Origin: a virus
Lineage: Duplodnaviria > Heunggongvirae > Uroviricota > Caudoviricetes
IMG/VR virus record: IMGVR_UViG_2795385694_000001
Length of the DNA stretch: 64,000 bases
Reading direction: 5' to 3' (one strand)
Position numbers and translations under genes: made by a program. The first letter of the stretch is position 1; the number at the start of each line of letters is the position of its first letter. The notes beneath the pieces are model-generated. The model made no database searches. It saw nothing but the letters and a program-made list of their open reading frames with translations, and had not been told where the DNA came from. Of the stretch, positions 11,154 through 52,209 are shown one piece after another.

Positions 11154-11833
11154 CCAAACTCCTTTGGTACATAGACTTGGTTCTGCGGTCGGATGAAGTC
11201 CGAATCCGCTGGCGGTTGGTCAGATTCTGTGATGCGAATCAGCAGACGCCATCCACGTTCAGTAGCCTGCGACGCCTGGTGGATGTTCCACCAATCCCAT
11301 GAGTGCCAAACAGCCTCTTGCGCGACCAATTTCCGCAGGGTCGTGCAACCATCAATCCGGCGAGTTAATTCTGAGTAGAGCTGTTCGCCTTCGTCGTGCT
11401 TAATCGGCAGGTGCAGTAATCCATCAATGAACACAGTCGGGCAGTCGTTTCCAACGTGCAGCGTGTGGTAGCGCGGGTAATAGCCCTCAAGGGAACGGTA
11501 ATTCTGCAGCGGAAGGGACGGCGTGCCCCAATTCGCTGGGGTCACGGTCTCGTCTGCAGCGCTGTAGCGCGGCACACCATCGGTATGCCACCCGGGAATC
11601 GCAGGCCACCAACCAGGCATCAGCATAGAGACCTTAGTGTCCACGAAGATGTGCTTGTGGTCCCCCACAATTGGGGCTGACTGCAGGAGTCCGCGCAAGA
11701 GTGGACCTCCATAGAGCACAGCATTCGGCAGGCTCGCGCGGCGCAGGTTCGGTGTCCCCTCGATTAGCGCGTGGTCGGATTCCGCTCTGGGCCCGATCAC
11801 CACAGGGTTGCGGTTAAACCAGTAGGCGGTCAT
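11147..11833 (-). CDS. putative Fe(II)/2-oxoglutarate-dependent oxygenase (PhyH-like WHTD...H motif)
   Basis: GWHTDG then YHTLHVG motifs; start chosen at MTAYWF with ATGA overlap to Pth2. Confidence 0.4.
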   Translation of the reverse strand: MTAYWFNRNPVVIGPRAESDHALIEGTPNLRRASLPNAVLYGGPLLRGLLQSAPIVGDHKHIFVDTKVSMLMPGWWPAIPGWHTDGVPRYSAADETVTPANWGTPSLPLQNYRSLEGYYPRYHTLHVGNDCPTVFIDGLLHLPIKHDEGEQLYSELTRRIDGCTTLRKLVAQEAVWHSWDWWNIHQASQATERGWRLLIRITESDQPPADSDFIRPQNQVYVPKEFGW

Positions 11834-12183
11834 AGCAGTTTCAGCTCCCCTGTAATCGGCGCGAGTTCGTCGGCGGTCGCTGGGCCAATGGCACAACAGG
11901 TAGTTGTGAGCACGCCGTGGAACTCAGTCTGTCCGTTGTCGGTAATCAAAGAGTTCGGGATCCCGGCCTTAATTGCCTTATCCCACAGCTCAATCAGCGC
12001 ATCTTCACTCTCGACACGTACACATACCTTGGTGAAACTCCCCTGCAGCCACTCTTCAACGCGCGGATCCGAGAGGTATTCGAGCGTCGCAGCCAGCGAT
12101 GCATGTGCGCCCTGTGCGACCATCTTGCCTGCGCGCATACCAAGGTCTTTGCGCATGACGATCATTTGCTTCAGCTCACTCAT
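11830..12183 (-). CDS. pth2: peptidyl-tRNA hydrolase, PTH2 family
   Basis: KQMIVMRKDLGMRAGKMVAQGAHASL ... ITDNGQTEF...CAIGPATADELAPITGELKLL aligns along its length to archaeal/eukaryotic Pth2 (PTRH2). Confidence 0.85.
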   Translation of the reverse strand: MSELKQMIVMRKDLGMRAGKMVAQGAHASLAATLEYLSDPRVEEWLQGSFTKVCVRVESEDALIELWDKAIKAGIPNSLITDNGQTEFHGVLTTTCCAIGPATADELAPITGELKLL

Positions 12184-12299
12184 CGCCGTTCACTTCTCCC
12201 ATGGTCTGAGCGCCGTCATAGACGGTCACCGGGTCGTAGTCGCATGCCGAATCGCGGTACCCCTTGCCTGGGATCACCGGGTACTTCTCAAACCAGAAC

Positions 12300-12812
12300 T
12301 CACCGTGCAAGAGCGCACGGTCCAGTGTGTGGGTCGACGTGGTAACTGGCTGGTGGTGAACATAGCGGGCCGCTGTAGCCGAAATTGGTAACCGAGATCC
12401 CCGCGCGTTCTGCTCGCTTCATGCAATCCCAGGTACCGCGTGAATCCTTCAACGGGAAGGCGATACACGTATCGGCACCACGGTCGACCATCTCCTGGTT
12501 TCGCAGGTGCCCAGCGACCGGGCAATAGCGAGTACCGTTCTTCCACCGAACGGCATGAGTGCAGTGCTGGTCGCAGTCTCGGTACCAGTCCGCAGGAACG
12601 CCCTCGTTCATTACCGGAAGGCCCTTAGCCATCGCTTCGTCGGCCCACTGCGATGCGAACAGGTCAGCACCGCTCGGGCACTCCCCCTGCACCACAACGA
12701 GATCGCCCTGGCCGCGCTTCCCTGCAATCGCAAGCTGGGCATTCAGAGCGGAACGTACGAACTTACGGGACGGCCAGGCCCGACTACCTGTAACCAGAAC
12801 GCGGCGCGTCAT
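12300..12812 (-). CDS. SLOG/DUF2493 (YspA-like) protein; apparent frameshift near the 3' end
   Basis: VLVTGSRAW...VVQGECPSGADLFASQWA...PADW motifs; a coding-like frame continues to 12184. Confidence 0.6.
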   Translation of the reverse strand: MTRRVLVTGSRAWPSRKFVRSALNAQLAIAGKRGQGDLVVVQGECPSGADLFASQWADEAMAKGLPVMNEGVPADWYRDCDQHCTHAVRWKNGTRYCPVAGHLRNQEMVDRGADTCIAFPLKDSRGTWDCMKRAERAGISVTNFGYSGPLCSPPASYHVDPHTGPCALAR

Positions 12813-12979
12813 AGCAAGGCACCCACAACCGTCACCAATAGGCCGATCACCGCAACGACCATCGCAACCGGCAATAGTGTCAGCGGCAGGTCATAGACCA
12901 AACCCATGACGCACATTCCTGACGGAACCCCCACGAGTACGCCCGACCAGTATGGAACGAGAGGGTTCAATGCCCCCAC
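12809..12979 (-). CDS. small two-TM membrane protein
   Basis: Hydrophobic C-terminal half of the 12809..13219 ORF; GTG or ATG internal start; ATGA overlap with the downstream gene. Confidence 0.3.
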   Translation of the reverse strand: MGALNPLVPYWSGVLVGVPSGMCVMGLVYDLPLTLLPVAMVVAVIGLLVTVVGALL

Positions 12980-13073
12980 CTCAGCTCCATCAACACCGGG
13001 AAGATTAGGACCAGGATGACCACGAGCCCACCCATCGCCAGTGACACGTACCAAGCCCAATCGTCCAGGCGCT

Positions 13074-13373
13074 TCATAGCTTCTCCAGCTTGTAGGTTGA
13101 AAGAACTTTCCGGATCGCGCCTGGATAAGTCCACCCCTGTCCGGCCTCCTCTTCCACGGCGGCAATGAAGGCCTTCTCGACAGCCTCCTGCTCCTCAAGT
13201 GCCTGGTAAGTCTCAGCACGCTCTCCGAGCCATAGCGCGACCTCTCGGATTCGGTCCGTGCCTGGACTAGATGGGCCGGAAGAAATCCCGCGCCATATAA
13301 TGTCGCGCGCGAACAAAATCATTTCCGGCGTGACAGTCGGAATCCTCTCGAAGTCATAGGGATTCGATGTCAT
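13074..13373 (-). CDS. hypothetical protein
   Basis: ORF track; ATG 13373. Confidence 0.5.
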   Translation of the reverse strand: MTSNPYDFERIPTVTPEMILFARDIIWRGISSGPSSPGTDRIREVALWLGERAETYQALEEQEAVEKAFIAAVEEEAGQGWTYPGAIRKVLSTYKLEKL

Positions 13374-13484
13374 GCCTGACGCTCCATCTTGATGTTCTCA
13401 ATCAACTCCGCTACCGACGCTACGAAGTCAACCACGCTCAGGGCGACGATTGTGATGCTCAAGTACTTTCTGAATTCCTTCATA
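13372..13484 (-). CDS. 36-aa hydrophobic peptide
   Basis: MKEFRKYLSITIVALSVVDF...; preceded by an 11-aa leader ORF that starts in the ACCCACATGAACC motif. Confidence 0.25.
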
Positions 13485-13560
13485 TACCAATGCTATTGAG
13501 CGATTCGGGGTTCATGTGGGTACGAAAAATGCCCCCAGCTTTCGCTGAGGGCTCTTCGAG

Positions 13561-13631
13561 TAGTCCATGCGGGAATCAAACCCGCACCAACACCTTGAGA
13601 GGGTGGTGTGCTCTCACTACACCAATGGACC
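13561..13631 (-). tRNA. tRNA-Glu (anticodon CTC)
   Basis: Hand-folded cloverleaf: acceptor GGTCCAT/ATGGACT, T-arm GCGGG-TTTGATT-CCCGC, anticodon loop CTCTCAA. Confidence 0.6.
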
Positions 13632-13637
13632 TTAGGG

Positions 13638-13976
13638 CTATTGCTCAACCCACTTGCCGGATTCACGAACCTCTGTCTTGAGGTTAACCGGCCACATATC
13701 ACGCTCCACTTGGGCACGTTGTAGGTCTTCGCGGCCCACCTGACGTTTCACCCATAGCTGGAACTTTGGTGAGCTCACCATGCGCCTGAACGCGGCCTGC
13801 TTGTTCTGCAGCTGGCTACGCTCCTCGCGCGACTCACCCACCGCGCCAGAAGGCTCATGCGTAATCCGCACGCCCGTCTCGCGCTTGTTCTGGTTTTGAC
13901 CGCCTTTGCCCCCAGATCGGAATGTGTCCACACGACAATCCGAGAGGGTGACAGACAGTACCCGTTCTCTACTCAC
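13638..13976 (-). CDS. arfB: ArfB-like peptidyl-tRNA hydrolase (class I release-factor GGQ domain protein)
   Basis: FRSGGKGGQNQNKRETGVRITHEPSG ... ESREERSQLQNKQAAFRRM matches the GGQ catalytic domain of ArfB/ICT1 and RF1. Confidence 0.8.
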   Translation of the reverse strand: MSRERVLSVTLSDCRVDTFRSGGKGGQNQNKRETGVRITHEPSGAVGESREERSQLQNKQAAFRRMVSSPKFQLWVKRQVGREDLQRAQVERDMWPVNLKTEVRESGKWVEQ

Positions 13977-13977
13977 G

Positions 13978-14051
13978 TCAAGTCGACCGGATTTGAACCG
14001 GCGTCCCCCGCCGTGACAGGGCGGTGCTTTAGACCTCTAAGCTACGACTCG
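13978..14051 (-). tRNA. tRNA-Asp (GTC)
   Basis: Acceptor CGAGTCG/CGACTTG, D-stem GCTT/AAGC, anticodon arm CCGCC-CTGTCAC-GGCGG, T-arm GCCGG-TTCAAAT-CCGGT. Confidence 0.7.
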
Positions 14052-14302
14052 AAAGAACGTTTGCCCCCAGTGGTTTTCGAGGCCACTGGGGCAGGTACGA
14101 ACAACCTGAGCCAACTTTCTGGGAATCAAACCCTGGAGCTGCTTGGCCAAAACTCCCGTGGAGACGGTGCGAATTGAACGCGACCACACCAATCTTGCAA
14201 GGATCGGTCGCCACCTTGGAACATGCGCCCCCAAGGCCCCCGTTTTGACAAGACTGGGTCTGAACTTGGACGGTTACCTCAACGGAGCCGACAACCCTGT
14301 AG

Positions 14303-14376
14303 GGCCTCATCGAGGTCTCGAACCCCGCGCCTCTTCGTTACTAAGGAAGTGCTCTAGCCAGATGAGCTAATGAGGC
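14303..14376 (-). tRNA. tRNA, anticodon AGT (Thr?), with a C.C mismatch closing the anticodon stem
   Basis: Acceptor GCCTCAT/ATGAGGC, D-arm GCTC..GAGC, T-arm CGGGG-TTCGAGA-CCTCG. Confidence 0.55.
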
Positions 14377-14425
14377 CTGGTGCATAGGCGTTTTGAACAG
14401 GTGCCCTTGCAAGTGGCCTGTGGCG

Positions 14426-14493
14426 TACCCAGTCGAGGAATCGAACCCCGCTTGGCTGGATGTAAGCCAGCTTTCGTCCCAGACTAACCAGGC
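14426..14493 (-). tRNA. tRNA-Val (TAC), short D-arm
   Basis: Anticodon arm GCTGG-CTTACAT-CCAGC, T-arm CGGGG-TTCGATT-CCTCG, acceptor with G.U pairs; 68 nt. Confidence 0.5.
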
Positions 14494-14498
14494 ATGAG

Positions 14499-14573
14499 AA
14501 CGAGTGACCAGATTCGAACTGGCACGACCTGTTTGGAAGACAGGGATGCTAAACCGTTAAACATCACACTCGC
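14499..14573 (-). tRNA. tRNA-Gly (TCC)
   Basis: Acceptor GCGAGTG/CACTCGT, D-stem GATG/CATC, anticodon arm CCTGT-CTTCCAA-ACAGG, T-loop TTCGAAT. Confidence 0.7.
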
Positions 14574-14577
14574 ATGG

Positions 14578-14644
14578 AGCGGCAGAGGTGACTCGAACAC
14601 CCTTGCAGCGGCTTAGGAGGCCACGCACTTTCCGGAACTACCGC
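14578..14644 (-). tRNA. tRNA-Arg (CCT)?, degenerate D-arm
   Basis: Acceptor GCGGTAG/CTGCCGC, anticodon arm GTGGC-CTCCTAA-GCCGC, T-arm GGGTG-TTCGAGT-CACCT; only 67 nt. Confidence 0.45.
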
Positions 14645-14649
14645 TTGGT

Positions 14650-14719
14650 AGGTTCGCACAGAATTGAACTGTGATTGCCGACGTATCAGATCGGTGTCCT
14701 TACCGTTGGACGACGAACC
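14650..14719 (-). tRNA. tRNA-Ile (GAT)
   Basis: D-stem GTCC/GGAC, anticodon arm CCGAT-CTGATAC-GTCGG, T-arm CACAG-TTCAATT-CTGTG. Confidence 0.6.
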
Positions 14720-14721
14720 AG

Positions 14722-14793
14722 TGGGTCTGGTAGGACTCGAACCTACGTCTCCGACTTAAGAGGACGGAGCTAAACCATCTCAGCTACAAACCC
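14722..14793 (-). tRNA. tRNA-Lys (CTT)
   Basis: Acceptor GGGTTTG/CAGACCC, D-stem AGCT/AGCT, anticodon loop CTCTTAA, T-arm GTAGG-TTCGAGT-CCTAC. Confidence 0.65.
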
Positions 14794-14801
14794 ATTGTTG
14801 G

Positions 14802-14873
14802 TAGGGCGCAAGGGATTCGAACCCTCAACACGCGAGGTAAAAGCTCGGGGTGATTCCGTTTCACCAACGCCCA
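14802..14873 (-). tRNA. tRNA-Lys (TTT)
   Basis: D-stem GTGA/TCAC, anticodon arm CCGAG-CTTTTAC-CTCG, T-arm GAGGG-TTCGAAT-CCCTT. Confidence 0.6.
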
Positions 14874-14876
14874 ATA

Positions 14877-15047
14877 TCAATTCATTGCCGGAAACGCCTC
14901 CCACACATGCGGATAAGCAGCGCGGTATGCGTCGCGACTGGAGCGTGTAAGAATTGTCGTCGGCTTACACCCGACAACCACCAGCCCTTCCCTGCTCACC
15001 CTCTCCACCGCGAGCTCAGGAGTCATCCTCCTGCCGTACACAAACAT
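14877..15047 (-). CDS. small hypothetical protein embedded in the tRNA array
   Basis: The ORF 14877..15113 was trimmed to the first ATG that does not overlap the tRNA at 15085..15159; moderately GC3-rich. Confidence 0.3.
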   Translation of the reverse strand: MFVYGRRMTPELAVERVSREGLVVVGCKPTTILTRSSRDAYRAAYPHVWEAFPAMN

Positions 15048-15084
15048 CGTGCCGGTGGTCGTCTCGACATCGAATACTTTCACG

Positions 15085-15159
15085 TAGTCGGCGCGAGGAT
15101 CGAACTCGCACACACCGAGGTTTGAACTCGGCGGCTTTGCCAGGTTTGCCTAGCCGACC
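15085..15159 (-). tRNA. tRNA with anticodon CAA (Leu-type) but class I (short variable arm)
   Basis: Acceptor GGTCGGC/GCCGACT, anticodon arm CCGAG-TTCAAAC-CTCGG, T-arm GCGAG-TTCGATC-CTCGC. Confidence 0.5.
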
Positions 15160-15217
15160 ATGCTCAGCATTTAACCGACCCGAGGCGGTCGGCACCCGTG
15201 AGGGCTGTTTGAACCGG

Positions 15218-15291
15218 TACTCCAAGAGGGATTCGAACCCACAACCTCCAGGGTCTAAGCCTGTCGCCTCTGCCAGTTGGGCTATTGGAGC
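15218..15291 (-). tRNA. tRNA with anticodon TAG (reads CUA; Leu-type) but class I structure
   Basis: Acceptor GCTCCAA/TTGGAGT, anticodon loop CTTAGAC, T-arm GTGGG-TTCGAAT-CCCTC. Confidence 0.5.
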
Positions 15292-15348
15292 TTGGTGCCG
15301 ATATTGCCGCGTCGGCTTTACGGTGACTCCTACTCACCGAGCGCGTCG

Positions 15349-15420
15349 AGACGAGGGCCGGGATCGAACCGGCGTGGGTCAGGGTTGCAGCCTGCCAGCT
15401 AGCCACTCACTCACTTCGCC
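15349..15420 (-). tRNA. tRNA-Cys (GCA)?, D-arm unclear
   Basis: T-arm GCCGG-TTCGATC-CCGGC is perfect; anticodon arm CAGG-CTGCAAC-CCTG; acceptor has one A.C mismatch. Confidence 0.45.
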
Positions 15421-15428
15421 CTAAGCCG

Positions 15429-15593
15429 CTATTCTGCGGCGGGTGCTGCCTTCTTCGCGGGGGCCTTCTTGGCTACCGGCTTCTCTTCCACTGCGTAGTG
15501 GAAGTCCTCAAGGGCATCCATACGATCAATCAGGTCGTTTACCGCCTTGACGATGTCGATATGGGCGATGCCCGTGCGCAGCTTGTCAGTCAT
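15429..15593 (-). CDS. 54-aa protein with Lys/Ala-rich tail (MTDKLRTGIAHIDIVKAV...)
   Basis: ATG with AAAGG RBS at 6-nt spacing; lies between tRNAs; below the track cutoff. Confidence 0.4.
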   Translation of the reverse strand: MTDKLRTGIAHIDIVKAVNDLIDRMDALEDFHYAVEEKPVAKKAPAKKAAPAAE

Positions 15594-15616
15594 ATTGGCC
15601 TTTCGGTGTCTGTACG

Positions 15617-15687
15617 TCCCCGTGCGCGGAGTTGAACCGCGATAACCTCGGTCACAGCGAGGGGCTCTGCCATTGAGCTACACAAGG
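15617..15687 (-). tRNA. tRNA-His (GTG)
   Basis: Classic D-arm TAGCTCAATGGCAGAGC, anticodon arm CCTCG-CTGTGAC-CGAGG, T-arm CGCGG-TTCAACT-CCGCG. Confidence 0.7.
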
Positions 15688-15751
15688 TATGGCGCTGGCC
15701 AGAGCAGCATGGCATCTCTGTTCCTTCGGGCTTTGTACCGGCAGCGCTCAG

Positions 15752-15826
15752 ACCCGTTGACAGGATTCGAACCTGCATGCGTTGCGCCTTCGTAGGGCGG
15801 TGGGCGCTCCATTGCCCAACAACGGG
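15752..15826 (-). tRNA. tRNA-Arg (ACG)
   Basis: Acceptor CCCGTTG/CAACGGG, D-stem GGGC/GCCC, anticodon loop CTACGAA, T-arm GCAGG-TTCGAAT-CCTGT. Confidence 0.7.
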
Positions 15827-15905
15827 ATAGCCCGACTCTTTAACCTTCTCCGTGGGTTTCGGGACCAGACTAATTCTCCTGGGAGGTGCTGGCGAGCGGA
15901 CCCTG

Positions 15906-15980
15906 TGGCGGGTACCGGATTTGAACCGGTGGTCTCAAGGTTATGAGCCTTGCGAGATGGCCGAGCTTCTCTAACCCGCT
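15906..15980 (-). tRNA. tRNA-Met (CAT) (initiator, elongator or Ile-lysidine type not resolved)
   Basis: Anticodon arm CAAGG-CTCATAA-CCTTG is perfect; T-arm ACCGG-TTCAAAT-CCGGT. Confidence 0.65.
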
Positions 15981-16105
15981 ATGTATGGTGACTCATTCCG
16001 GCAGGACAGTTCGTCGCCTACCGTATCCGCGCGAGTCAACGCGACCTTTTACGTGGAGTGCCCAGCTTTTCACCAGTAGCTGTGGAACCTGGTTTCCCTT
16101 ACACG

Positions 16106-16179
16106 CCGACTCTCCCCGAATCGAACGGGGGCGCACCGGGCTTCAACCGGTCGCTCTTACCTAACTGAGCTAAGAGTCG
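16106..16179 (-). tRNA. tRNA-Phe (GAA)
   Basis: D-arm TAGCTCAGTTAGGTAAGAGC, anticodon arm ACCGG-TTGAAGC-CCGGT, T-arm CCCCG-TTCGATT-CGGGG, acceptor CGACTCT/AGAGTCG. Confidence 0.75.
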
Positions 16180-16473
16180 ATTGTTAGAGGCTGAGAGTAC
16201 ACCCGCTATCGAGAACCTTTCGCAGCATTATGGATTCGCTGCTTCTCCAGGCCATCCCTGACCTAGTTCTCACGCCTGGTCCGTTACCGTGAACCACTCG
16301 TTATGCCGAAAGCTACTCTGCGGCTTTCCCTTCGCGATGAGATGGCCGTCTCACTGCTGCAGTACTTGCCTACAAACCGCACTCACCTTGCGGGACTATT
16401 GTGCGGCCCAGATTCCCGAGGGTCTGGGATTAAGGCGCTTTTGCTCCTCGGCAGGGGAAGGACTTTTGCTTTT

Positions 16474-16545
16474 TATTGACGACGGGACTTGAACCCGCAC
16501 ATCCAGTTTCCAATAACTGGTGACCTACCGTTGGTCTACGCCATT
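16474..16545 (-). tRNA. tRNA with a non-standard 8-nt (or 6-nt) anticodon loop; identity unresolved
   Basis: D-arm GACC-AACGGTA-GGTC, T-arm GCGGG-TTCAAGT-CCCGT; anticodon region CCAGT-TATTGGAA-ACTGG. Confidence 0.45.
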
Positions 16546-16999
16546 CTCGCAGCGGAGAATGATTTGACTAGAGACGTGCTTCCCCATGAAGTTCCGAACC
16601 CTTTTGGGGCACAGAATGCTTCACGCCTCTCGTGCTTTCGCCTGGCGGGGCTAATTACACTCTCTCTCAACCGCATTGCGAGCCGTCGCCCGACGCGAGA
16701 TCAATCATGGAACACGCCCTTGCTTGCGAAGCTCGGACTCAGTTCCTTCCGCTCCACAGGGCGCTTGTTCGATAGCCTTTTCACACGCACGTACGTGATG
16801 GTGTCCTCAGCACTTTGCCGTTGGACGGGGCGTAACTCGCAACCTGGCAGCCATCTCTGACTGCTCAAGGATTGGATTGCATGGATTGCCCTTGCGGGTG
16901 GTGGGTTGTCACCCCACCTTTCACCACCTTGCGGTGGCTTATGGGCCATGCCCCGAATATCTTAACTATATCTCCCACAACGGAGTTCGTGTGGGTGAG

Positions 17000-17082
17000 C
17001 GGAGAGGCAGGTATTCGAAACCTACTGCGAACAGCGCTCCGGTTAGCAACCGGGCCTAGTCACCTAACTAGTTGCGCTCTCC
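17000..17082 (-). tRNA. tRNA-Ser (GCT), class II
   Basis: Acceptor GGAGAGC/CCTCTCC, anticodon loop TTGCTAA, variable stem-loop GCG-CTGTT-CGC, T-arm TAGGT-TTCGAAT-ACCTG. Confidence 0.6.
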
Positions 17083-17161
17083 ATGGTCCACCATTTCAGC
17101 ACCGACGCGATCTTCAGTGCACCTGTTCAGCCACCATTCAGGCAGGTGGAAGTCTTTAGAG

Positions 17162-17246
17162 CGGAAAGTCGAGGAATCGAACCCCCAGGACGCACTGCCT
17201 GCCCCGGTATTCGACGCCGGTTGCCGACCATTCAGCGGGACCTTCC
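17162..17246 (-). tRNA. tRNA-Ser (CGA), class II
   Basis: Acceptor GGAAGGT/ACTTTCC, anticodon loop GTCGAAT, long variable arm GCAGG..CCTG. Confidence 0.55.
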
Positions 17247-17328
17247 ATCGCCCCAGAATTCATGACGCAGCCTGGCGCACACTGCGGACAGCCAACTCAT
17301 GGCAGGTACCTACCGGTTGACCCAAATG

Positions 17329-17401
17329 CTGATGACCCTGGATTCGAACCAAGACCTACGTGGTTCAGAGCCACGTGTGCTGCCGGTTACACCAATCATC
17401 A
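17329..17401 (-). tRNA. tRNA-Gln (CTG)
   Basis: D-arm GTG-TAACCGGCAG-CAC, anticodon arm CGTGG-CTCTGAA-CCACG is perfect, T-arm CTTGG-TTCGAAT-CCAGG. Confidence 0.7.
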
Positions 17402-17480
17402 ATGCTGAGACTGGCCTTGCGGGCGGGGGAACGTTTCTGCTTGCCGCAAGCCTTCAGTTCGTTCCACACCAGTCTCATTG

Positions 17481-17557
17481 TCTCGCCGTCAGGAGTCGAA
17501 CCTGCACACCCGAAGGAGCAGATTTACAGTCTGCGTTGATCGCCTATTCGCGACGAG
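17481..17557 (-). tRNA. tRNA-Tyr (GTA)
   Basis: Anticodon arm GCAGA-CTGTAAA-TCTGC is perfect; extended variable region; T-arm GCAGG-TTCGACT-CCTG. Confidence 0.6.
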
Positions 17558-17609
17558 ATTGGAGCCAGTGCTCGGCTTCTCGCCGATTCGCATGCACACA
17601 CTGACATGG

Positions 17610-17682
17610 CTGGCTTGGAAGGATTCGAACCTACACCTCGCGAGTTAACAGCTCGCTGCTCTACCAATTGAGCTACAGGCCA
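17610..17682 (-). tRNA. tRNA-Asn (GTT)
   Basis: D-arm TAGCTCAATTGGTAGAGC, anticodon arm GCGAG-CTGTTAA-CTCGC, T-arm GTAGG-TTCGAAT-CCTTC. Confidence 0.7.
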
Positions 17683-17801
17683 AGAGCGAGGGTCGCCAGT
17701 GTCAGCGCGCTTTCCGACCTGTGCGACCCTCTTGCCCGTCCTGCTTAGAGATGAGACGGAGCCGAAAACACCCGTACGGTCATCATACGTGATGACCAAC
17801 G

Positions 17802-17876
17802 TCTGCCAGGCGCGATTTGAACACGCGATCTCCTGGACCCAAACCAGGCGGGATGGCCAAACTTCCCTACAAGCAG
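17802..17876 (-). tRNA. tRNA-Pro (TGG)
   Basis: Anticodon arm CCTGG-TTTGGGT-CCAGG is perfect; T-arm GCGTG-TTCAAAT-CGCGC. Confidence 0.6.
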
Positions 17877-18156
17877 ATGATGGACGACACGGCCCAGGTA
17901 CGGCACCTCAGGTCGGATCCTTTTTATCGGAACCTACTGCGGGATTACCCTGCCATCCATATGGCCACCGGCATCCCGATGGTCGCGCGGAGATGTCTCT
18001 CCACATTCCCCGTACGACCGACGCTTTCCTGGAGCTACCTGTACTTGCGCATGTGGTCTGACAGCCGGGGCCACACTGACTAACGAGGATGTTCTCCCTT
18101 TGCACTACCGGCAGCCTACGCCGCCAGTCGGGGCTCGAACCCGAATCTTCCTCTCG

Positions 18157-18510
18157 TGGAGCTGCCCGGAATTGAACCGGGATGTTACGTGACTTGTCAC
18201 AGTCTTCTACGTGCGTAGTCCACCGATTGGGTCGGTTGGGGTGGACGCCTGTCCGAATCGAGACCTCAGACTCTCGACCGATCTTCCAGCACAGTTTGTC
18301 GCCTGAGAGCTGGTCATTGCGAGTTCCCCGTATTCGCGACGGTGGATTGGTACACGGAACGGGTAAACCGTGGTACCCCACCGGACTACGCAGCTAGGGC
18401 GTAGTCGGACTGAGCAGAAGCTGCAGTTATTGTGGTTGCACTGTTACGGGCGTTGCGGGCCCGGCACGCTTCTCAGTAAGTTGACACGCAATCGAATACC
18501 TGTCAGCCCC
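18157..18510 (-). ncRNA. ssrA: tmRNA (ssrA), one-piece, mycobacterial type
   Basis: 5' GGGGCTGACAGG...GAAGCGTGCCGG...GCAACCACAATAACT then tag reading frame GCA GCT TCT GCT CAG TCC GAC TAC GCC CTA GCT GCG TAG (AASAQSDYALAA), 3' CCCGGTTCAATTCCGGGCAGCTCCA; this parallels the M. tuberculosis ssrA layout (tag ADSHQRDYALAA, as recalled). Confidence 0.85.
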
Positions 18511-18567
18511 ATTGAAGTATCTATATCTCTATGGAATTTTCAAATGTCATGCCACACAGAGGCATTG

Positions 18568-18638
18568 CACGGGCGGAGAGAATCGAACTCCCACTAACGG
18601 GTTTGGAATCCGTTGTCCTACCTTTGGACCACGCCCAT
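18568..18638 (-). tRNA. tRNA-Trp (CCA)
   Basis: D-stem GTCC/GGAC, anticodon loop TTCCAAA, T-arm GGGAG-TTCGATT-CTCTC. Confidence 0.6.
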
Positions 18639-18710: not shown

Positions 18711-18748
18711 ATAAAAACGGGCCCCGATCCACTGAGGAACCGGGGCCC
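18711..18748 (-). terminator. rho-independent terminator for - strand transcription
   Basis: GGGCCCCG-(14-nt loop)-CGGGGCCC followed on the - strand by GTTTTTAT. Confidence 0.55.
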
Positions 18749-18768
18749 AACGTCGAGAAAGCCTACGC

Positions 18769-33397: not shown

Positions 33398-33603
33398 TCG
33401 ACCTCATACCAGTCAGTGACAGTGCGCTGCAATAGTTTCCGCCCGCTGGCTTCATCCACGTACTTACGTGCCTGGGCTTCCGTCAGTTCACCCACTTCTT
33501 CACGGCAGGCAACCTCTCCGCATGGGTACGAAAAGCTCCATTCGACGTAGCACTTTGGCAGCGGCTTGTTCTGCGCTTCGAGCTGCTCCTGCACGCTACT
33601 CAT
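33394..33603 (-). CDS. hypothetical protein
   Basis: ORF track; ATGA overlaps. Confidence 0.45.
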   Translation of the reverse strand: MSSVQEQLEAQNKPLPKCYVEWSFSYPCGEVACREEVGELTEAQARKYVDEASGRKLLQRTVTDWYEVE

Positions 33604-34118
33604 CCGATGCCGTCCACAATGCCAAGGGCAACGGCTTCATCCATCGCCAAATACCATTCCTTGTCCCGCATGTGCTCACGGAACTCGTTGTAAGACAGCT
33701 TGCAACGGGTGTGAGCTTTGATGTAGCGCTCGACCCACTTCTCGCTGAACTCGAGCTCATTGCGTACCTGAGCCATCGTCTGGTCGTGAAAGGTCAGTAG
33801 CGGCTCATGGATGTAGATGTAGCCCATCTGCCCACCTAGACGTACGTCGCCAGCCTGGAGGATCAATGAGGCTGCAGAAGCGGCTCGTCCGCGCACACGA
33901 GTGGTGATGTGGTGTCCCCCACCACCGGCCTCAGACATTCGCACGAGCTCGTCATAGATGGCGTCCCCATGCTCCATGGATCCGCCTGGTGAGTTGATGA
34001 TCAACTCAATCGGACGCCCCGGGTGGTCGATACCAATATCGCGCAGGAGGTTGAGGGTCTTGCGTGCGCCCTTCTCGTCAATCTCGCCATGTAGCCACAG
34101 CTCTGCCGGTTCCATCAT
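33600..34118 (-). CDS. ClpP-like serine protease
   Basis: INSPGGSMEHGDAIYDEL and AASLILQAGD...GQMGYIYIHEP are ClpP-family motifs. Confidence 0.75.
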   Translation of the reverse strand: MMEPAELWLHGEIDEKGARKTLNLLRDIGIDHPGRPIELIINSPGGSMEHGDAIYDELVRMSEAGGGGHHITTRVRGRAASAASLILQAGDVRLGGQMGYIYIHEPLLTFHDQTMAQVRNELEFSEKWVERYIKAHTRCKLSYNEFREHMRDKEWYLAMDEAVALGIVDGIG

Positions 34119-37109: not shown

Positions 37110-37577
37110 ATGGGAATTGAAGTACAGAAGGCTCGCGGGAACGAGGTCATCTACCGCACCCCGGACGGCCCGATCCACATCAAGGCTTGGGATGACGAGA
37201 ATGGTAGGTGGTACGTATCGCTGAACGCCCCTGACCGGTACCCGAACGGATCACGCAAGCAAACTACCCGCACCCTGCATATCGGCACGCAGTTTCGCGG
37301 CGATATCGAGGCGTTTGTCCAGGCATTCGCAACGATCTACGAGGCGGCCAGCGCTCCGAAGTCTCTAGAACCCCTCCGTGTGCTTACGTCCCTAGACTGC
37401 GATGAAGCGCGTGACGGCACGGTGTGGGCTGACTCGGATGAGGGATTCCCTTTCCACTACCGATTCCGGGGTAGTCACTGGGAATATTTCGCTCTCGAGG
37501 GTGAGCGCAGGTGGGCGGCGCTGGACGACCCACACTTGCTTAGCGGTTGCGGCCCCTATGTCGAGGTGCCCGCGTGA
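37110..37577 (+). CDS. hypothetical protein with a C-terminal SLDCDEARDGTVW domain
   Basis: First gene of the + strand island; C-terminal domain paralogous to the 10110..11153 product. Confidence 0.55.
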   Translation: MGIEVQKARGNEVIYRTPDGPIHIKAWDDENGRWYVSLNAPDRYPNGSRKQTTRTLHIGTQFRGDIEAFVQAFATIYEAASAPKSLEPLRVLTSLDCDEARDGTVWADSDEGFPFHYRFRGSHWEYFALEGERRWAALDDPHLLSGCGPYVEVPA

Positions 37578-38242
37578 GCCATCGCTCCCCTCGCCACAAA
37601 GAGGTCGCATCAAAAGGACTAATCCTCCTCGCTGAGGTTGGATCCGGCCTCCACGGTGTGACCCTGGAGGGCACCGACGACCATGACGAGATGGGTATCT
37701 GCATTCCCCCACCGGAATGCGTTCTGGGCCTGGAGAAGTTCGAGCAGTACACCGATCGTTGGCACTCAGACGGGACACGCATTCCTGACGGAGTGCGCAG
37801 TCAGCATGGCGATACCGACCACACGACGTATGCGCTGAACAAGTGGGCTCGCCTTGCAGCGCAGGGGAACCCGACCGTTCTACTCCCGTTGTTCGCACCC
37901 AAGGGAAAGATCTATAAGCAGACGCTGGAGGGCACTCAACTTCTTAGGGCCCGGAGTCTGTTCCTCTCGAGGGACGCTGGATGGCGGTTCCATGGGTATC
38001 TGAAAGCCCAGCGTGCGCGCATGATCGGCGAAAAGGGTGTGTCGAAACACAAGAATCGCCGCGAGCTGGTGGAGCAGTTCGGTTTCGACACGAAGATGGC
38101 CTACCACGCTCTGCGCCTGGCTGTTCAGGGTTCAGAATTGATGACTCGCCAAACCATCACAGTTCCCATGGCTGCTTCGAACGTGAGTTGGCTTCGGTAC
38201 GTGCGCAATGGCGGGGCATCACTCGAGGACGTGACGCGGTAG
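37574..38242 (+). CDS. Pol-beta superfamily nucleotidyltransferase; ORF ends at an in-frame TAG with a coding-like 44-codon extension to 38377
   Basis: LLAEVGSGLHGVTLEGTDDHDEMGI matches the hG[GS]x9-13DhDh NTase motif; GTG start overlaps the upstream stop. Confidence 0.55.
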   Translation: MSHRSPRHKEVASKGLILLAEVGSGLHGVTLEGTDDHDEMGICIPPPECVLGLEKFEQYTDRWHSDGTRIPDGVRSQHGDTDHTTYALNKWARLAAQGNPTVLLPLFAPKGKIYKQTLEGTQLLRARSLFLSRDAGWRFHGYLKAQRARMIGEKGVSKHKNRRELVEQFGFDTKMAYHALRLAVQGSELMTRQTITVPMAASNVSWLRYVRNGGASLEDVTR

Positions 38243-38395
38243 CTGGATCGCCTTACCGCTGCGCTCGAAATCGACATCGCGGCCTCGAGCCTCCCCGATC
38301 ACGTCGACCACGACCAACTGAACGACTTTCTCATCGGCCTGCACTACAGCTACTGGAAATGCACCGGTCAACTCTAAACACGAAGGGATAAGCAT

Positions 38396-49522: not shown

Positions 49523-51292
49523 CTAACTAATGAGGTGGACACCGATGTTCTGGAGGATGTCCTTGATCTTCTTAGTTAGCCGAGCAAGACGTTCACCGAC
49601 CGACATTGCGGCCTTGTTCTGCCCGATCTTCACCTGGACGCTGAGTGGCGTATTGGACGCGTTATCCCATGAAGGAATGATCTCCTCGACCTGGGAAACG
49701 AAAATGCGGTCACCGTAACCACGGCTAGTGGAGCCGACGCGGGAACCAATTGCGAAGTGTGCACCCGGAATAATCCACGAGTTACCCCTCAAGGACAGTG
49801 TATGCGAGGTCTCAGACTTCGACGCCAGGAAACCACCACGTAGAGCGGCCAGCGCAGACAGCGACCACGAGTTGTTTTCAGCACCCTGCTGGTACAGCTC
49901 CCAAAGGTGCACCCACCCAAGGTTCTTCGCGCGGCCAGTGTTCTTCCATTCCAACCACGCGGCGATCGTGCCCACCAGGAATGGCATGATCACGTCAGCT
50001 GCGATGGTTCCCGCCGACGAGAATCCACCAAGTAGGAAGTATCCCAGGATATTTCCGGTGGTCTCGATGATCAAACGTGCGATGGCATCCGCTGCCGGGT
50101 TGTCACCACCAACCACCACAGACACTGCAGTGGCAGGGCTCCACGTGAGCTCGCTGGTCTCGACTGGAGACCAGCTCGAATCTCTGATGACCAACCACGG
50201 CATTTGCGCCAAGGTGGCAAGCCACCCGCTCCCGTAGTACTCGTCAGGATGGTAAGTCTCGTCATCTGCGATGACTGACGCGGTGTCCTCAATGAAGCCA
50301 CCGACATACTGCACGACCGAACGGACCATGCCATCTGCGATCGTTCCGCCGAGGAAGGTTCCGCCCAGGATGGGGTTGTAATACCCGCTGTCGTCAACGA
50401 TCTCGAAGATCAGTGCGCCATTCGCTGGAGTCTCAACGAACAGAATGCCGTTCTCAGTCTCGCCCTCATCGGAGAAGCAACGCCTCCACCTGATGGTCAG
50501 CTGTGCATCCTCCAGGGCGTCCGCGATCACCGAATCGATCGGGTTCATGCGGGTACCGAGGACGGTCCACAGGGACGAATCATCAAGCGGTAGTGGATTG
50601 GCCTTGATGTGACACTGCCAGTTCTCCCACTCGGTAGGCAGTAGCCCGAGCCACTGGCTGAGGTCGAATGGGTCGTCTGGCAGGTGATAGATAGGTGCCT
50701 GTACTCGAATCAGGTTGATCAGGATCATGATCGAGCAGGCCCATTTCGCAGGGCCCAGGATGGGTAGCACCCTTGGCCACTGGAAAACCGGGATAGGCAG
50801 GGCCGGGTTCGGGGGCCCGAGTAGGAACTGGAGGAACTGGAGGTCGTCGTTGAACGTTAGTTCCATGTACGCCATGCCATCTCGCATCTTCTTGGCATGG
50901 TGGTGAAGCAAGCCCGTCCAACGGAGCTTGCCGCCGAAGAAGTCGATACGGATGACAACGTTCTTGCGCGCGTGAGGATCATCAGGAATGGAGCGCATCC
51001 ACTCCGAGATGTAGTGATCGAAACGCAGCTCAAGCACACCCTGAGTGGAGGTGTTCTTCTTAAACGGGAACGAGGCCTTGATAGTGTCGCGGTAATCGAC
51101 ACGTCCGTAGTACTCGAGGCCTGGCGATCCGTCTTCCTTGTTGCGCCAGAAGGAGATCACCGGCTTTGCCATGCGAAGCCACATCAGCTCCTGGCGATAT
51201 GCCTCGACAGACTCATTGATGCCCGAGATCTCCTCGAGCGTCCTTAGGCTCATACAGCCCCCACTGGTCGGCTCCAGGGGCGCGAGTACCAC
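49523..51292 (-). CDS. minor tail protein
   Basis: 589 aa, immediately downstream of the tape measure gene. Confidence 0.55.
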   Translation of the reverse strand: MVLAPLEPTSGGCMSLRTLEEISGINESVEAYRQELMWLRMAKPVISFWRNKEDGSPGLEYYGRVDYRDTIKASFPFKKNTSTQGVLELRFDHYISEWMRSIPDDPHARKNVVIRIDFFGGKLRWTGLLHHHAKKMRDGMAYMELTFNDDLQFLQFLLGPPNPALPIPVFQWPRVLPILGPAKWACSIMILINLIRVQAPIYHLPDDPFDLSQWLGLLPTEWENWQCHIKANPLPLDDSSLWTVLGTRMNPIDSVIADALEDAQLTIRWRRCFSDEGETENGILFVETPANGALIFEIVDDSGYYNPILGGTFLGGTIADGMVRSVVQYVGGFIEDTASVIADDETYHPDEYYGSGWLATLAQMPWLVIRDSSWSPVETSELTWSPATAVSVVVGGDNPAADAIARLIIETTGNILGYFLLGGFSSAGTIAADVIMPFLVGTIAAWLEWKNTGRAKNLGWVHLWELYQQGAENNSWSLSALAALRGGFLASKSETSHTLSLRGNSWIIPGAHFAIGSRVGSTSRGYGDRIFVSQVEEIIPSWDNASNTPLSVQVKIGQNKAAMSVGERLARLTKKIKDILQNIGVHLIS

Positions 51293-52164: not shown

Positions 52165-52209
52165 AAGTTTCCGTAGAATGGAAATGAAACGCGCAGCGGC
52201 AGTGTGCGT

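What the first reader, a model, noticed from the sequence alone, without database searches (positions are those of the whole stretch)
18157..18510. Phage-encoded one-piece tmRNA with tag AASAQSDYALAA
The - strand reads GGGGCTGACAGG...GAAGCGTGCCGG...CAACCACAATAACT, then GCA GCT TCT GCT CAG TCC GAC TAC GCC CTA GCT GCG TAG, and ends ...CCCGGTTCAATTCCGGGCAGCTCCA. The 5' and 3' ends pair as a tRNA-Ala-like acceptor (GGGGCTG/CAGCTCC). The tag has the same length and the same C-terminal DYALAA as the mycobacterial SsrA tag (ADSHQRDYALAA as I recall it). This points to a Mycobacterium-like host and means tagged proteins would be directed to host ClpXP.
Basis: partly seen in the sequence, partly recalled or inferred. 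Interest (0 to 1): 0.7.

Follow-up and report, generated by a model that had tools for sequence, protein, structure and literature searches.

The report
Known prophage-encoded tmRNA gene
This is a genuine, full-length ribosome-rescue RNA (tmRNA) carried by a Mycobacterium abscessus prophage inside its tRNA gene array, but the same gene with the same tag is already annotated in GenBank and described in the literature, so it is real but not new.

Summary
ARAGORN (18156-18510, - strand, tag AASAQSDYALAA*) and Rfam RF00023 (82 bits against a cut-off of 47, E 3e-30, full model) both call a standard one-piece tmRNA. The window is a cluster MabI M. abscessus prophage, about 96-97% identical to prophiT49-2. 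GenBank already annotates a tmRNA with exactly this tag there. Dedrick et al. 2021 and Morgado & Vicente 2018 already describe the tRNA array, the tmRNA and the release factor.

All 12 MabI and Cluster M relatives examined keep the gene directly after tRNA-Trp. They keep the G3:U70 pair, a 12-codon reading frame that starts with an Ala codon, and helices with compensatory changes. The gene is therefore under selection and is not a relic.

It is at most 63% identical to any sampled host ssrA, so it belongs to a phage lineage and was not recently captured. No SmpB is encoded, so it must use the host's.

The last six tag residues (DYALAA) match the host tags ADS[N/H]QRDYALAA. Targeting to Clp proteases is therefore plausible but untested. 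Mycobacterial ClpC1P1P2 also degrades SsrA-tagged substrates, and the M. smegmatis Cluster M relatives end in AVGA, AVAA or AVGV.

Verdict: real, functional-looking, already known, low interest.

The parts
18157..18510 (-). tmRNA gene, from G1 (18510) to the discriminator A (18157). The next bases, CGA (18156-18154), do not encode CCA.
   Evidence: ARAGORN; Rfam RF00023 at 82 bits, E 3e-30; sequence
18504..18510 (-). Acceptor stem 5' strand GGGGCUG. G3 forms the G3:U70 alanine identity pair.
   Evidence: all 7 pairs are invariant in 12 phage homologues, with GU at pair 3 in all 12
18158..18164 (-). Acceptor stem 3' strand CAGCUCC
18165..18181 (-). T-arm: CCCGG / UUCAAUU loop / CCGGG
   Evidence: two of the five pairs show C-G to G-C compensatory changes between MabI and Cluster M
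18438..18463 (-). Pseudoknot PK1. P3 is CGGG/CCCG. P4 is GCA/UGC.
   Evidence: P3 is invariant and was recovered by RNAalifold. P4 has one compensatory pair, C-G to A-U.
18386..18424 (-). Tag reading frame: resume codon GCA (18424-18422), 12 codons coding AASAQSDYALAA, stop TAG (18388-18386). It is preceded by the conserved AUAA motif.
   Evidence: All 12 phage homologues keep 12 codons, an Ala resume codon and the upstream AUAA.
18384..18406 (-). Helix H5 (GACUACGC / GCGUAGUC), which contains the stop codon
   Evidence: 100% of cells paired in 12 sequences. The compensatory change C-G to U-A links Asp GAC/GAT to stop TAG/TGA.
18327..18383 (-). PK2: a long hairpin (outer CGGUGG/CCACCG, inner GGUAC/GUACC) whose loop CCCGU pairs with the downstream ACGGG
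   Evidence: Three compensatory pairs in the inner stem; the loop-to-downstream pairing is invariant; the hairpin was recovered by RNAalifold.
18219..18325 (-). Variable region corresponding to PK3/PK4. It cannot be aligned between sub-lineages.
   Evidence: Low posterior probability in the Rfam alignment; unalignable in A1 and A2.
18516..18543 (-). Promoter-like site TTGAAA-16-GATACT, ending 5 nt upstream of G1
   Evidence: Consensus scan. The -35-like motif is conserved upstream of the tmRNA in MabI and Cluster M phages and is unique in the window. Function is inferred only.
18567..18638 (-). tRNA-Trp(cca), the first gene of the array and the conserved upstream neighbour of the tmRNA
   Evidence: same arrangement in the 12 MabI and Cluster M relatives fetched; in Kumao no tRNA is annotated upstream.
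13560..18638 (-). tRNA array in which the tmRNA sits: 20 typed tRNAs, one odd tRNA-like element inside GOLLD, and the tmRNA
13638..13976 (-). Stand-alone GGQ (RF-1 domain) protein inside the array, the annotated 'release factor'. Context for translation rescue.
   Evidence: Pfam PF00472 at 67.7 bits; far below the full-length RF1, RF2, PrfH and ArfB cut-offs.
11830..12183 (-). Pth2-type peptidyl-tRNA hydrolase just downstream of the array. Context.
   Evidence: Pfam PF01981 at 110.9 bits; NCBIfam TIGR00283 at 98.1 bits against a cut-off of 82.

Best explanation
This is a functional, standard (non-permuted) tmRNA gene belonging to a temperate mycobacteriophage of cluster MabI, a relative of Cluster M, integrated in or derived from Mycobacterium abscessus. 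It is the second gene of the phage's tRNA array, which the literature assigns to early lytic expression. Shown here: it has a complete tRNA-like domain with the G3:U70 alanine identity pair. It has PK1, an Ala resume codon behind the conserved AUAA motif, a 12-codon tag frame whose stop lies in helix H5, and PK2. These features are conserved with compensatory base changes across the phage lineage. Inferred: the transcript is matured by host RNase P and 3' processing enzymes, and CCA is added by the host enzyme because CCA is not encoded. It is charged by host AlaRS and delivered by host SmpB and EF-Tu, since the phage has no SmpB, to ribosomes stalled on broken or stop-less mRNAs during lytic growth. 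The ribosome resumes on the tag frame, releases at UAG and is recycled. The nascent chain receives A-AASAQSDYALAA. Its last six residues equal those of mycobacterial SsrA tags, so the chain is probably handed to the host ClpX/ClpC1-ClpP1P2 proteases. Together with about 20 tRNAs, a GGQ-only release-factor-like protein and a Pth2 hydrolase, it most likely keeps translation capacity high while the phage reprograms the cell.
For: Two detectors agree: ARAGORN and Rfam RF00023 at 82 bits against a cut-off of 47, E 3e-30, full length. The window is collinear with prophiT49-2 at roughly 84-99% across blocks, about 96-97% for the large ones. There the tmRNA with tag AASAQSDYALAA* is annotated, as it is in prophi86-1. 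Full-length RF00023 hits of 86-118 bits occur at the same position in prophi86-1, prophiGD54-2, eight Cluster M phages and Kumao. On 12 phage sequences the helix model is 93.4% paired, against 31-49% when the partners are slid by 1-3 columns. Seven pairs show changes on both sides, in the T-arm, H5, PK1 and PK2. RNAalifold independently recovers P1, P2d, PK1-P3, H5, the PK2 hairpin and the T-arm. G3:U70 and the discriminator A are invariant. All 12 keep an Ala resume codon, the upstream AUAA and exactly 12 codons. Identity to 115 host tmRNAs is at most 63%, while hosts with ADS[N/H]QRDYALAA tags average 85% among themselves, so this is a long-maintained phage gene. No SmpB is present in the window: an HMM of 65 host SmpBs against the six-frame translation gave a best E of 0.71. 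None is annotated in prophiT49-2, although 4.2 kb of that record, 50001-54241, was never fetched. Host tags end in DYALAA. Mtb SsrA-tagged substrates are degraded by ClpXP1P2 and ClpC1P1P2 in vitro (PMC4416901). The literature interprets the array, tmRNA and release factor as translational reprogramming in lytic growth (PMC8092301).
Against: There is no expression, aminoacylation or tagging data for this RNA or for any MabI or Cluster M tmRNA. The Rfam score is the lowest in the lineage (82 bits against 86-118). The PK3/PK4 region aligns poorly, and the middle of helix P2 is irregular, with P2a only 74% paired. Cluster M relatives have tags ending in AVGA, AVAA or AVGV instead of ALAA, so proteolytic targeting may not be the conserved function of the lineage. 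The promoter call is a consensus match only.
Confidence: 0.8

Rival explanations
1. The RNA acts mainly as a competitor. By binding host SmpB, and perhaps EF-Tu and AlaRS, it diverts or inhibits host trans-translation. On this view the tag frame matters little. This resembles the proposal for the TLD-only ssrA of mycobacteriophage DS6A.
For: The phage encodes no SmpB, so any activity consumes the host protein. Hudson et al. 2014 note that a TLD-only molecule strongly inhibits tmRNA, perhaps by titrating SmpB (PMC4131195). Tags in Cluster M relatives drift away from the ALAA degron.
Against: A decoy needs only the tRNA-like domain. Here PK1, the AUAA resume context, a 12-codon frame of fixed length, the stop inside H5 and PK2 are all conserved, with compensatory changes. 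In MabI the degron end DYALAA is kept exactly.
Confidence: 0.08
2. The gene is a non-functional passenger, a decaying ssrA copy that hitch-hikes in a horizontally mobile tRNA array.
For: The array is mosaic. This window lacks two tRNAs, an HNH gene and the RtcB gene found in prophiT49-2. The PK3/PK4 region is highly variable. ARAGORN fails on six Cluster M homologues.
Against: The gene is retained at the same position in every MabI and Cluster M phage examined. The TLD and resume context are invariant, the reading frame is intact with constant length, and there are 7 compensatory pairs. Between the window and prophi86-1 overall identity drops to 84% while the tag frame stays identical at the nucleotide level.
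Confidence: 0.07
3. It is host ssrA sequence: a piece of the bacterial tmRNA gene duplicated at a phage attachment site, or a recent capture of the host gene.
For: Some M. abscessus prophages (MabG, MabM) and Cluster K phages do integrate into the host tmRNA gene (PMC8092301; PMC10865867).
Against: The gene is full length and sits about 10 kb from the serine integrase, inside the tRNA array. It is at most 63% identical to 115 sampled host tmRNAs. Its H5 and PK2 differ from the host type. MabI phages use a serine integrase at other attB sites.
Confidence: 0.01

Closest known systems
tmRNA of M. abscessus prophages prophiT49-2 (OQ417962 gene 110) and prophi86-1 (MW584160 gene 112), cluster MabI
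   Same: Same gene: 98.6% and about 83% nucleotide identity. Identical tag frame and tag AASAQSDYALAA*. Same position after tRNA-Trp in the same tRNA array.
   Different: Five substitutions against prophiT49-2, all outside the TLD and the tag frame. The surrounding array differs: this window lacks tRNA-Ala(tgc), tRNA-Glu(ttc), one HNH gene and RtcB.
tmRNA of prophiGD54-2 (MabI) and of Cluster M mycobacteriophages (Rey, PegLeg, Bongo, GenevaB15, Aziz and others)
   Same: Homologous gene at the same position. Same TLD, PK1, H5 and PK2 architecture, and a 12-codon tag with a central DYA. Described with the array in PMC8092301 and PMC7953290.
   Different: The tags differ: ANAHQSDYALAA in GD54-2, and AAFVAADYAVGA, AAFVDADYAVAA or AAFVAADYAVGV in Cluster M, which lack the host-like LAA end. 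The stop is TGA instead of TAG, with a compensating GAT for GAC. The PK3/PK4 region is unrelated.
Chromosomal ssrA of Mycobacterium and Mycolicibacterium (tags ADSHQRDYALAA and ADSNQRDYALAA)
   Same: Same RNA family and overall design. Same tag length, same last six residues DYALAA, same acceptor stem, and the shared GAAGCGUGCCGG segment of P2.
   Different: Only 60-63% identical overall. PK1 is shorter and H5 and PK2-4 differ. Tag positions 2-6 differ (ASAQS against DS[N/H]QR). In 65 of the sampled host loci smpB lies within the 8 kb stretch around ssrA, whereas the phage has none.
tmRNAs of Cluster C (Bxz1 group) and Cluster V (Wildcat) mycobacteriophages, Bacillus phage G, and the TLD-only ssrA of DS6A
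   Same: They set the precedent that phages, especially tRNA-rich mycobacteriophages, carry ssrA without smpB (PMC4131195; PMC1475703).
   Different: They are different phage lineages. No significant nucleotide similarity to them appeared in the blastn search of the phage collection. DS6A has only the tRNA-like domain, whereas this gene is complete.

Membership tests
Standard one-piece tmRNA (Rfam RF00023) | Covariance-model score above the curated gathering threshold over the full model | tested here: met
   82.0 bits against 47, E 3e-30, model positions 1-374 of 374
Standard one-piece tmRNA (Rfam RF00023) | The 5' and 3' ends pair as a tRNA-like acceptor stem with G3:U70 and discriminator A (alanine identity) | tested here: met
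   GGGGCUG/CAGCUCC followed by A. All 7 pairs are invariant and pair 3 is GU in all 12.
Standard one-piece tmRNA (Rfam RF00023) | T-arm with a GUUCNANNC-type loop and no anticodon arm, replaced by the long helix P2 | tested here: met
   CCCGG-UUCAAUU-CCGGG with 2 compensatory pairs. P2d is 6 of 6 invariant, P2a has 5 conserved pairs, and the middle of P2 is irregular.
Standard one-piece tmRNA (Rfam RF00023) | Pseudoknot PK1 immediately upstream of the resume codon | tested here: met
   P3 is 4 bp and invariant. P4 is 3 bp with one C-G to A-U compensatory change. It is small compared with the host PK1.
Standard one-piece tmRNA (Rfam RF00023) | Ala resume codon behind a conserved A-rich motif, then a short frame ending in a hydrophobic ...ALAA, with the stop in helix H5 | tested here: met
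   AAUAACU|GCA, then 12 codons coding AASAQSDYALAA, with UAG inside the 8-bp H5.
Standard one-piece tmRNA (Rfam RF00023) | Downstream pseudoknots PK2-PK4 | tested here: inconclusive
   PK2 is well supported, with 3 compensatory pairs. The PK3/PK4 region has plausible local helices but cannot be aligned between relatives and has low posterior probability in the Rfam alignment.
Standard one-piece tmRNA (Rfam RF00023) | Works with SmpB, is aminoacylated with alanine, and tags nascent chains | not testable with these tools
   No SmpB in the phage, but it is present next to host ssrA. Binding, charging and tagging need experiments.
Permuted (two-piece) tmRNA (Rfam RF04321 and relatives) | Acceptor and coding pieces in permuted order, processed into two RNAs | tested here: not met
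   No permuted-tmRNA hit at gathering score in the window. In the relatives RF04321 scores 30-45 bits, below its cut-off of 47, and spans the neighbouring tRNA-Trp. The gene ends form the acceptor stem.
Host ssrA or attachment-site remnant | Near identity to the chromosomal ssrA and location at a prophage end | tested here: not met
   At most 63% identity to 115 host tmRNAs. The location is internal, in the tRNA array. M. abscessus ssrA itself was not in the sample.
SsrA-type Clp degron | C-terminal ...LAA-COOH recognised by ClpX (and by ClpC1 in mycobacteria) | tested here: met
   The tag ends in DYALAA, identical to the host tags. This is a sequence criterion only. Degradation is known for the host tag (PMC4416901) and is untested for the phage tag.

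The most novel reading that the evidence does not exclude
The tmRNA is one component of a phage-borne translation-rescue island: about 20 tRNAs, the tmRNA, a GGQ-only release-factor-like protein, Pth2, GOLLD RNA, and RtcB in sister phages. The selected role of this island would be counter-defence. It would restore ribosome and tRNA function when the host or competing prophages trigger abortive-infection nucleases that cut tRNAs or mRNAs. It might also capture host SmpB, so that rescue runs on the phage's own tag. The host-like DYALAA end in M. abscessus prophages, against the AVGA/AVAA/AVGV ends in M. smegmatis phages, would then reflect host-specific tuning of what happens to rescued chains.
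Probability: 0.2. Interest if true: 0.55.

Novelty: already known. Interest (0 to 1): 0.15.

Why it matters
As a discovery it matters little. The gene, its tag and its context are in GenBank and in at least two papers. It remains a useful marker, since it identifies the window as a MabI/Cluster M-type mycobacteriophage. It is also a good experimental handle, because nobody appears to have tested what a phage tmRNA without its own SmpB does. The natural tag variation in this lineage (ALAA against AVGA, AVAA and AVGV) offers a ready-made test of whether rescue or proteolytic tagging is the selected function. M. abscessus prophages are also relevant to phage therapy and strain diversity.

Tried and rejected
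The host comparison therefore rests on other Mycobacterium, Mycolicibacterium, Rhodococcus, Nocardia, Gordonia and Corynebacterium genomes.

2. ARAGORN on the Cluster M loci found a tmRNA in only 2 of 8, plus Kumao. I rejected this as evidence of absence after Rfam found full-length hits in all of them.

3. I tried to define the middle of helix P2 and PK3/PK4 by hand. The pairings were ambiguous or lineage-specific, so I left them out of the tested structure.

4. I tested whether the conserved upstream motif TTGAnAAyTnnATAG is a repeated array promoter. It occurs only once in the window, so it is specific to the tmRNA and its function is unproven.

5. I expected an RtcB-PrfH-like repair pair from the prophiT49-2 annotation. 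RtcB is absent from this window, and the GGQ protein is far below the PrfH and ArfB cut-offs.

6. I considered the ClpP-like ORF (33603-34118) as a dedicated protease for the tag. Its similarity to ClpP and head-maturation proteases is weak and nothing links it to the tmRNA, so I did not pursue it.

7. I searched for phage-encoded SmpB. There are 68 phage records with SmpB-like sequence, and none of the listed organism groups is Mycobacterium.

Full report
**1. Observation**

ARAGORN reports a tmRNA at 18156-18510 (-) with tag peptide AASAQSDYALAA*. The Rfam tmRNA covariance model RF00023 matches 18154-18510 (-) from the first to the last model position. It scores 82.0 bits against a gathering score of 47, with E = 3e-30.

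The next bases are CGA, so CCA is not encoded.

**2. What the window is**

A 20 kb stretch around the gene is 95.8% identical to Mycobacterium phage prophiT49-2, a prophage of M. abscessus T49. It is 94.4% identical to prophi86-1 and 85% identical to prophiGD54-2. A local blastn shows the whole window is collinear with prophiT49-2 from about 14.9 kb to 78.9 kb. The aligned blocks range from 84% to 99% identity, with the large ones at about 96-97%. This stretch covers the portal (cut by the window end) through the tail genes, lysis genes, replication genes, the tRNA array and the serine integrase.

These prophages form cluster MabI, which is organised like the Cluster M mycobacteriophages. Dedrick et al. 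[quoted passage not shown] Morgado & Vicente 2018 had already reported a tmRNA, a structured RNA of about 430 nt, RF-1 and Pth genes inside mycobacterial tRNA arrays (PMC5966550).

The GenBank records annotate a tmRNA with 'Tag peptide: AASAQSDYALAA*' in prophiT49-2 (gene 110) and prophi86-1 (gene 112), and 'ANAHQSDYALAA*' in prophiGD54-2. The exact tag-encoding string also occurs in four IMG/VR viral contigs of 78-80 kb. ARAGORN called the tmRNA with the same tag in two of these; the stretches held for the other two were too short. The finding is therefore already known.

**3. Is it a maintained, functional-looking gene?**

*Conservation of position.* Rfam finds a full-length tmRNA (86-118 bits) at the same position in prophi86-1, prophiGD54-2, eight Cluster M phages and Kumao. 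In the MabI and Cluster M genomes it lies directly after tRNA-Trp.

*Structure.* I aligned the 12 MabI and Cluster M sequences (A2) and tested a helix model that includes two pseudoknots.
- 93.4% of cells form standard pairs, against 31-49% when the 3' partners are slid by 1-3 columns.
- Seven pairs have changes on both sides: two in the T-arm, one in H5, one in PK1-P4 and three in the PK2 inner stem.
- RNAalifold, which did not know my model, recovers the acceptor stem, P2d, PK1-P3, H5, the PK2 hairpin and the T-arm.
- One compensatory change is especially telling. MabI has Asp GAC paired with stop UAG, while Cluster M has Asp GAU paired with stop UGA. This keeps both the coding and helix H5.

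*Reading frame.* G3:U70 and the discriminator A are invariant. All 12 sequences keep an Ala resume codon, the upstream AUAA motif and a frame of exactly 12 codons. Between the window and prophi86-1 the RNA is only 84% identical overall, yet the 39-nt tag frame is identical. This pattern fits purifying selection on both the tRNA-like and the mRNA-like parts. It does not fit a decaying relic or a pure decoy.

*Weak points.* The middle of P2 is irregular, and the PK3/PK4 region cannot be aligned between sub-lineages.

**4. Relation to the host gene**

One genome scan returned 120 Mycobacteriales loci. ARAGORN found 115 host tmRNAs in them.
- The host tags are ADSNQRDYALAA (47 loci) and ADSHQRDYALAA (28 loci), plus Corynebacterium-type AEK(N/T)SQRDYALAA and AENTQRDYALAA and a few others.
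- Behra et al. 2019 also report that mycobacterial tags vary only at position 4, His or Asn (PMC6582537).
- No host locus carried the phage tag.

The phage RNA is at most 63% identical to any host tmRNA (mean 60%). Hosts with ADS[N/H]QRDYALAA tags average 85% identity among themselves. PK1 is shorter, and H5 and PK2-4 are built differently. The gene is therefore an old phage-lineage ssrA. It is neither a recent capture nor an attachment-site remnant, although some other M. abscessus prophages do integrate into host ssrA.

The shared DYALAA identifies the order Mycobacteriales and not the genus Mycobacterium.

**5. Partners**

smpB lies near ssrA, within the 8 kb stretch held, in 65 of the host loci. 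A profile built from those 65 proteins finds nothing in the six-frame translation of the window (best E 0.71, all filters off). No SmpB is annotated in the fetched parts of prophiT49-2; record positions 50001-54241 were not fetched, but the window covers their counterpart. A tblastn of an actinobacterial SmpB against 50,697 phage records gives 68 hits, and none of the listed organism groups is Mycobacterium. The phage RNA must therefore use host SmpB, AlaRS, EF-Tu, RNase P and the CCA-adding enzyme. That is an inference from established tmRNA biology.

**6. Mechanism proposed**

Shown:
- a complete and conserved tmRNA anatomy;
- a location in the phage's tRNA array, which the literature assigns to early lytic transcription;
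- a strong terminator-like hairpin upstream of tRNA-Trp (18749-18718);
- a promoter-like TTGAAA-16-GATACT ending 5 nt before G1. Its -35-like motif is conserved upstream of the tmRNA across the lineage and is unique in the window.

Inferred: during lytic growth the RNA is charged with alanine and enters stalled ribosomes with host SmpB. Translation then switches to GCA GCU UCU ... GCG UAG and the ribosome is released. The chain carries A-AASAQSDYALAA.

Because the last six residues equal the host degron, degradation by Clp proteases is likely. In vitro both ClpXP1P2 and ClpC1P1P2 of M. tuberculosis degrade substrates bearing the Mtb tag (PMC4416901), so 'ClpXP' alone is too narrow.

The Cluster M relatives that infect M. 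smegmatis carry AAFVAADYAVGA, AAFVDADYAVAA or AAFVAADYAVGV. This suggests that ribosome release, not proteolysis, is the function conserved across the lineage. Classic E. coli work points the same way: charging, but not a degradable tag, is needed for growth of lambda-immP22 (my own knowledge, not checked here).

The neighbours fit a translation-maintenance role. They are a stand-alone GGQ/RF-1-domain protein (13638-13976; Pfam 67.7 bits; far below the RF1, RF2, PrfH and ArfB cut-offs) and a Pth2 peptidyl-tRNA hydrolase (11830-12183).

**7. Rivals**

- SmpB-titrating decoy. This idea was raised for the TLD-only ssrA of phage DS6A (PMC4131195). It is not excluded, but it does not explain the conservation of PK1, the resume context, the fixed-length frame, H5 and PK2.
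- Non-functional passenger. This is contradicted by the compensatory changes and the intact frame.
- Host fragment. This is contradicted by the 60% identity and the internal position.
- Permuted tmRNA. This is excluded by the end-to-end RF00023 match.

**8. Novelty and score**

The gene is already known. It is annotated with the same tag in two GenBank records and discussed in PMC8092301 and PMC5966550. Phage ssrA genes have been catalogued since the Bxz1 genome (PMC4131195, PMC1475703).
- covariation support for the phage-type structure;
- the measurement that the gene is only about 60% identical to host ssrA;
- the direct demonstration that no SmpB is encoded;
- the observation that the tmRNA is present in every Cluster M genome fetched (8 plus Kumao) but often unannotated.

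Interest is low (0.15). The most novel reading still open is a counter-defence translation-rescue island, which I put at about 0.2 probability.

Noticed in passing
window 16188-16631 (-): Full-length GOLLD RNA (RF02032, 195.7 bits against a cut-off of 150, E 1e-53) in the middle of the tRNA array. A tRNA-like element is embedded at 16474-16545; ARAGORN calls it 'tRNA-???' with anticodon 'tg'. It is conserved in prophiT49-2 (L001:7943-8386, 198.6 bits), where only the embedded 'tRNA-OTHER' is annotated. GOLLD with a pseudo-tRNA in mycobacterial tRNA clusters is already published (PMC6582537). It is probably the '~430 nt structured RNA' of PMC5966550.
   Followed up: partly
L124-L127, L131 (MrMagoo, Estes, Nanosmite, Reindeer, SlimJimmy), positions 401 to about 750-810: The tmRNA is under-annotated in Cluster M phages. 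Rfam finds full-length tmRNAs (96-112 bits) where the GenBank records have no tmRNA feature and ARAGORN finds none. The Estes/Aziz genome announcement reports a tmRNA only in Aziz (PMC7953290). The gene was found in every Cluster M genome fetched here (8 plus Kumao).
   Followed up: yes
window 13638-13976 (-): [quoted passage not shown] It lies between tRNA-Asp and tRNA-Glu. It is far below the NCBIfam cut-offs for RF1, RF2, PrfH and ArfB, so it is a stand-alone GGQ protein of unknown partner. It may be a second ribosome-rescue or peptidyl-tRNA release activity.
   Followed up: partly
window 11830-12183 (-): An archaeal/eukaryotic-type Pth2 peptidyl-tRNA hydrolase (Pfam PTH2, 110.9 bits; TIGR00283 above its cut-off) just downstream of the array. 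This is unusual for a bacterial virus and fits the translation-maintenance theme.
   Followed up: partly
window 12299-13470 (-): The RtcB-like RNA ligase of prophiT49-2 (gene 137) is absent from this window; tblastn finds nothing. Its slot holds a SLOG/YAcAr-domain ORF (12300-12812) and a 99-aa ORF with no family match (13074-13373). This is a cassette swap next to the array.
   Followed up: partly
window 13977-14376 and 15980-16105 (-): Compared with prophiT49-2, the array here lacks tRNA-Ala(tgc), tRNA-Glu(ttc) and the HNH endonuclease between tRNA-Phe and tRNA-Met. This fits the HNH-associated turnover of tRNA repertoires described for Cluster M.
   Followed up: no
window 37574-38377 (+): The homologue of the prophiT49-2 'nucleotidyltransferase' (gene 63, 96.6% identical) carries an in-frame stop at codon 222. 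This could be a pseudogene, a strain difference or a sequencing error.
   Followed up: no
window 33603-34118 (-): A ClpP-like ORF (172 aa) lies in the early/replication region and not in the head-assembly module. Its similarity to ClpP and ClpP-related head-maturation proteases is weak and below all NCBIfam cut-offs. No link to the tmRNA tag was established.
   Followed up: partly
window 18516-18543 (-) and 18718-18749 (-): The AT-rich promoter-like element TTGAAA-16-GATACT ends 5 nt before the tmRNA 5' end. Its -35-like motif is conserved upstream of the tmRNA in MabI and Cluster M phages and is unique in the window. A 13-bp GC-rich terminator-like hairpin with a T-run lies just upstream of tRNA-Trp. 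Together these suggest the array starts a new transcription unit and that the tmRNA may have its own promoter.
   Followed up: partly
PMC8092301 Table 1 against MW584160: The published table lists prophiGD86-1 with 20 tRNAs and no tmRNA. The GenBank record annotates a tmRNA (gene 112), and Rfam confirms it at 85.9 bits.
   Followed up: yes
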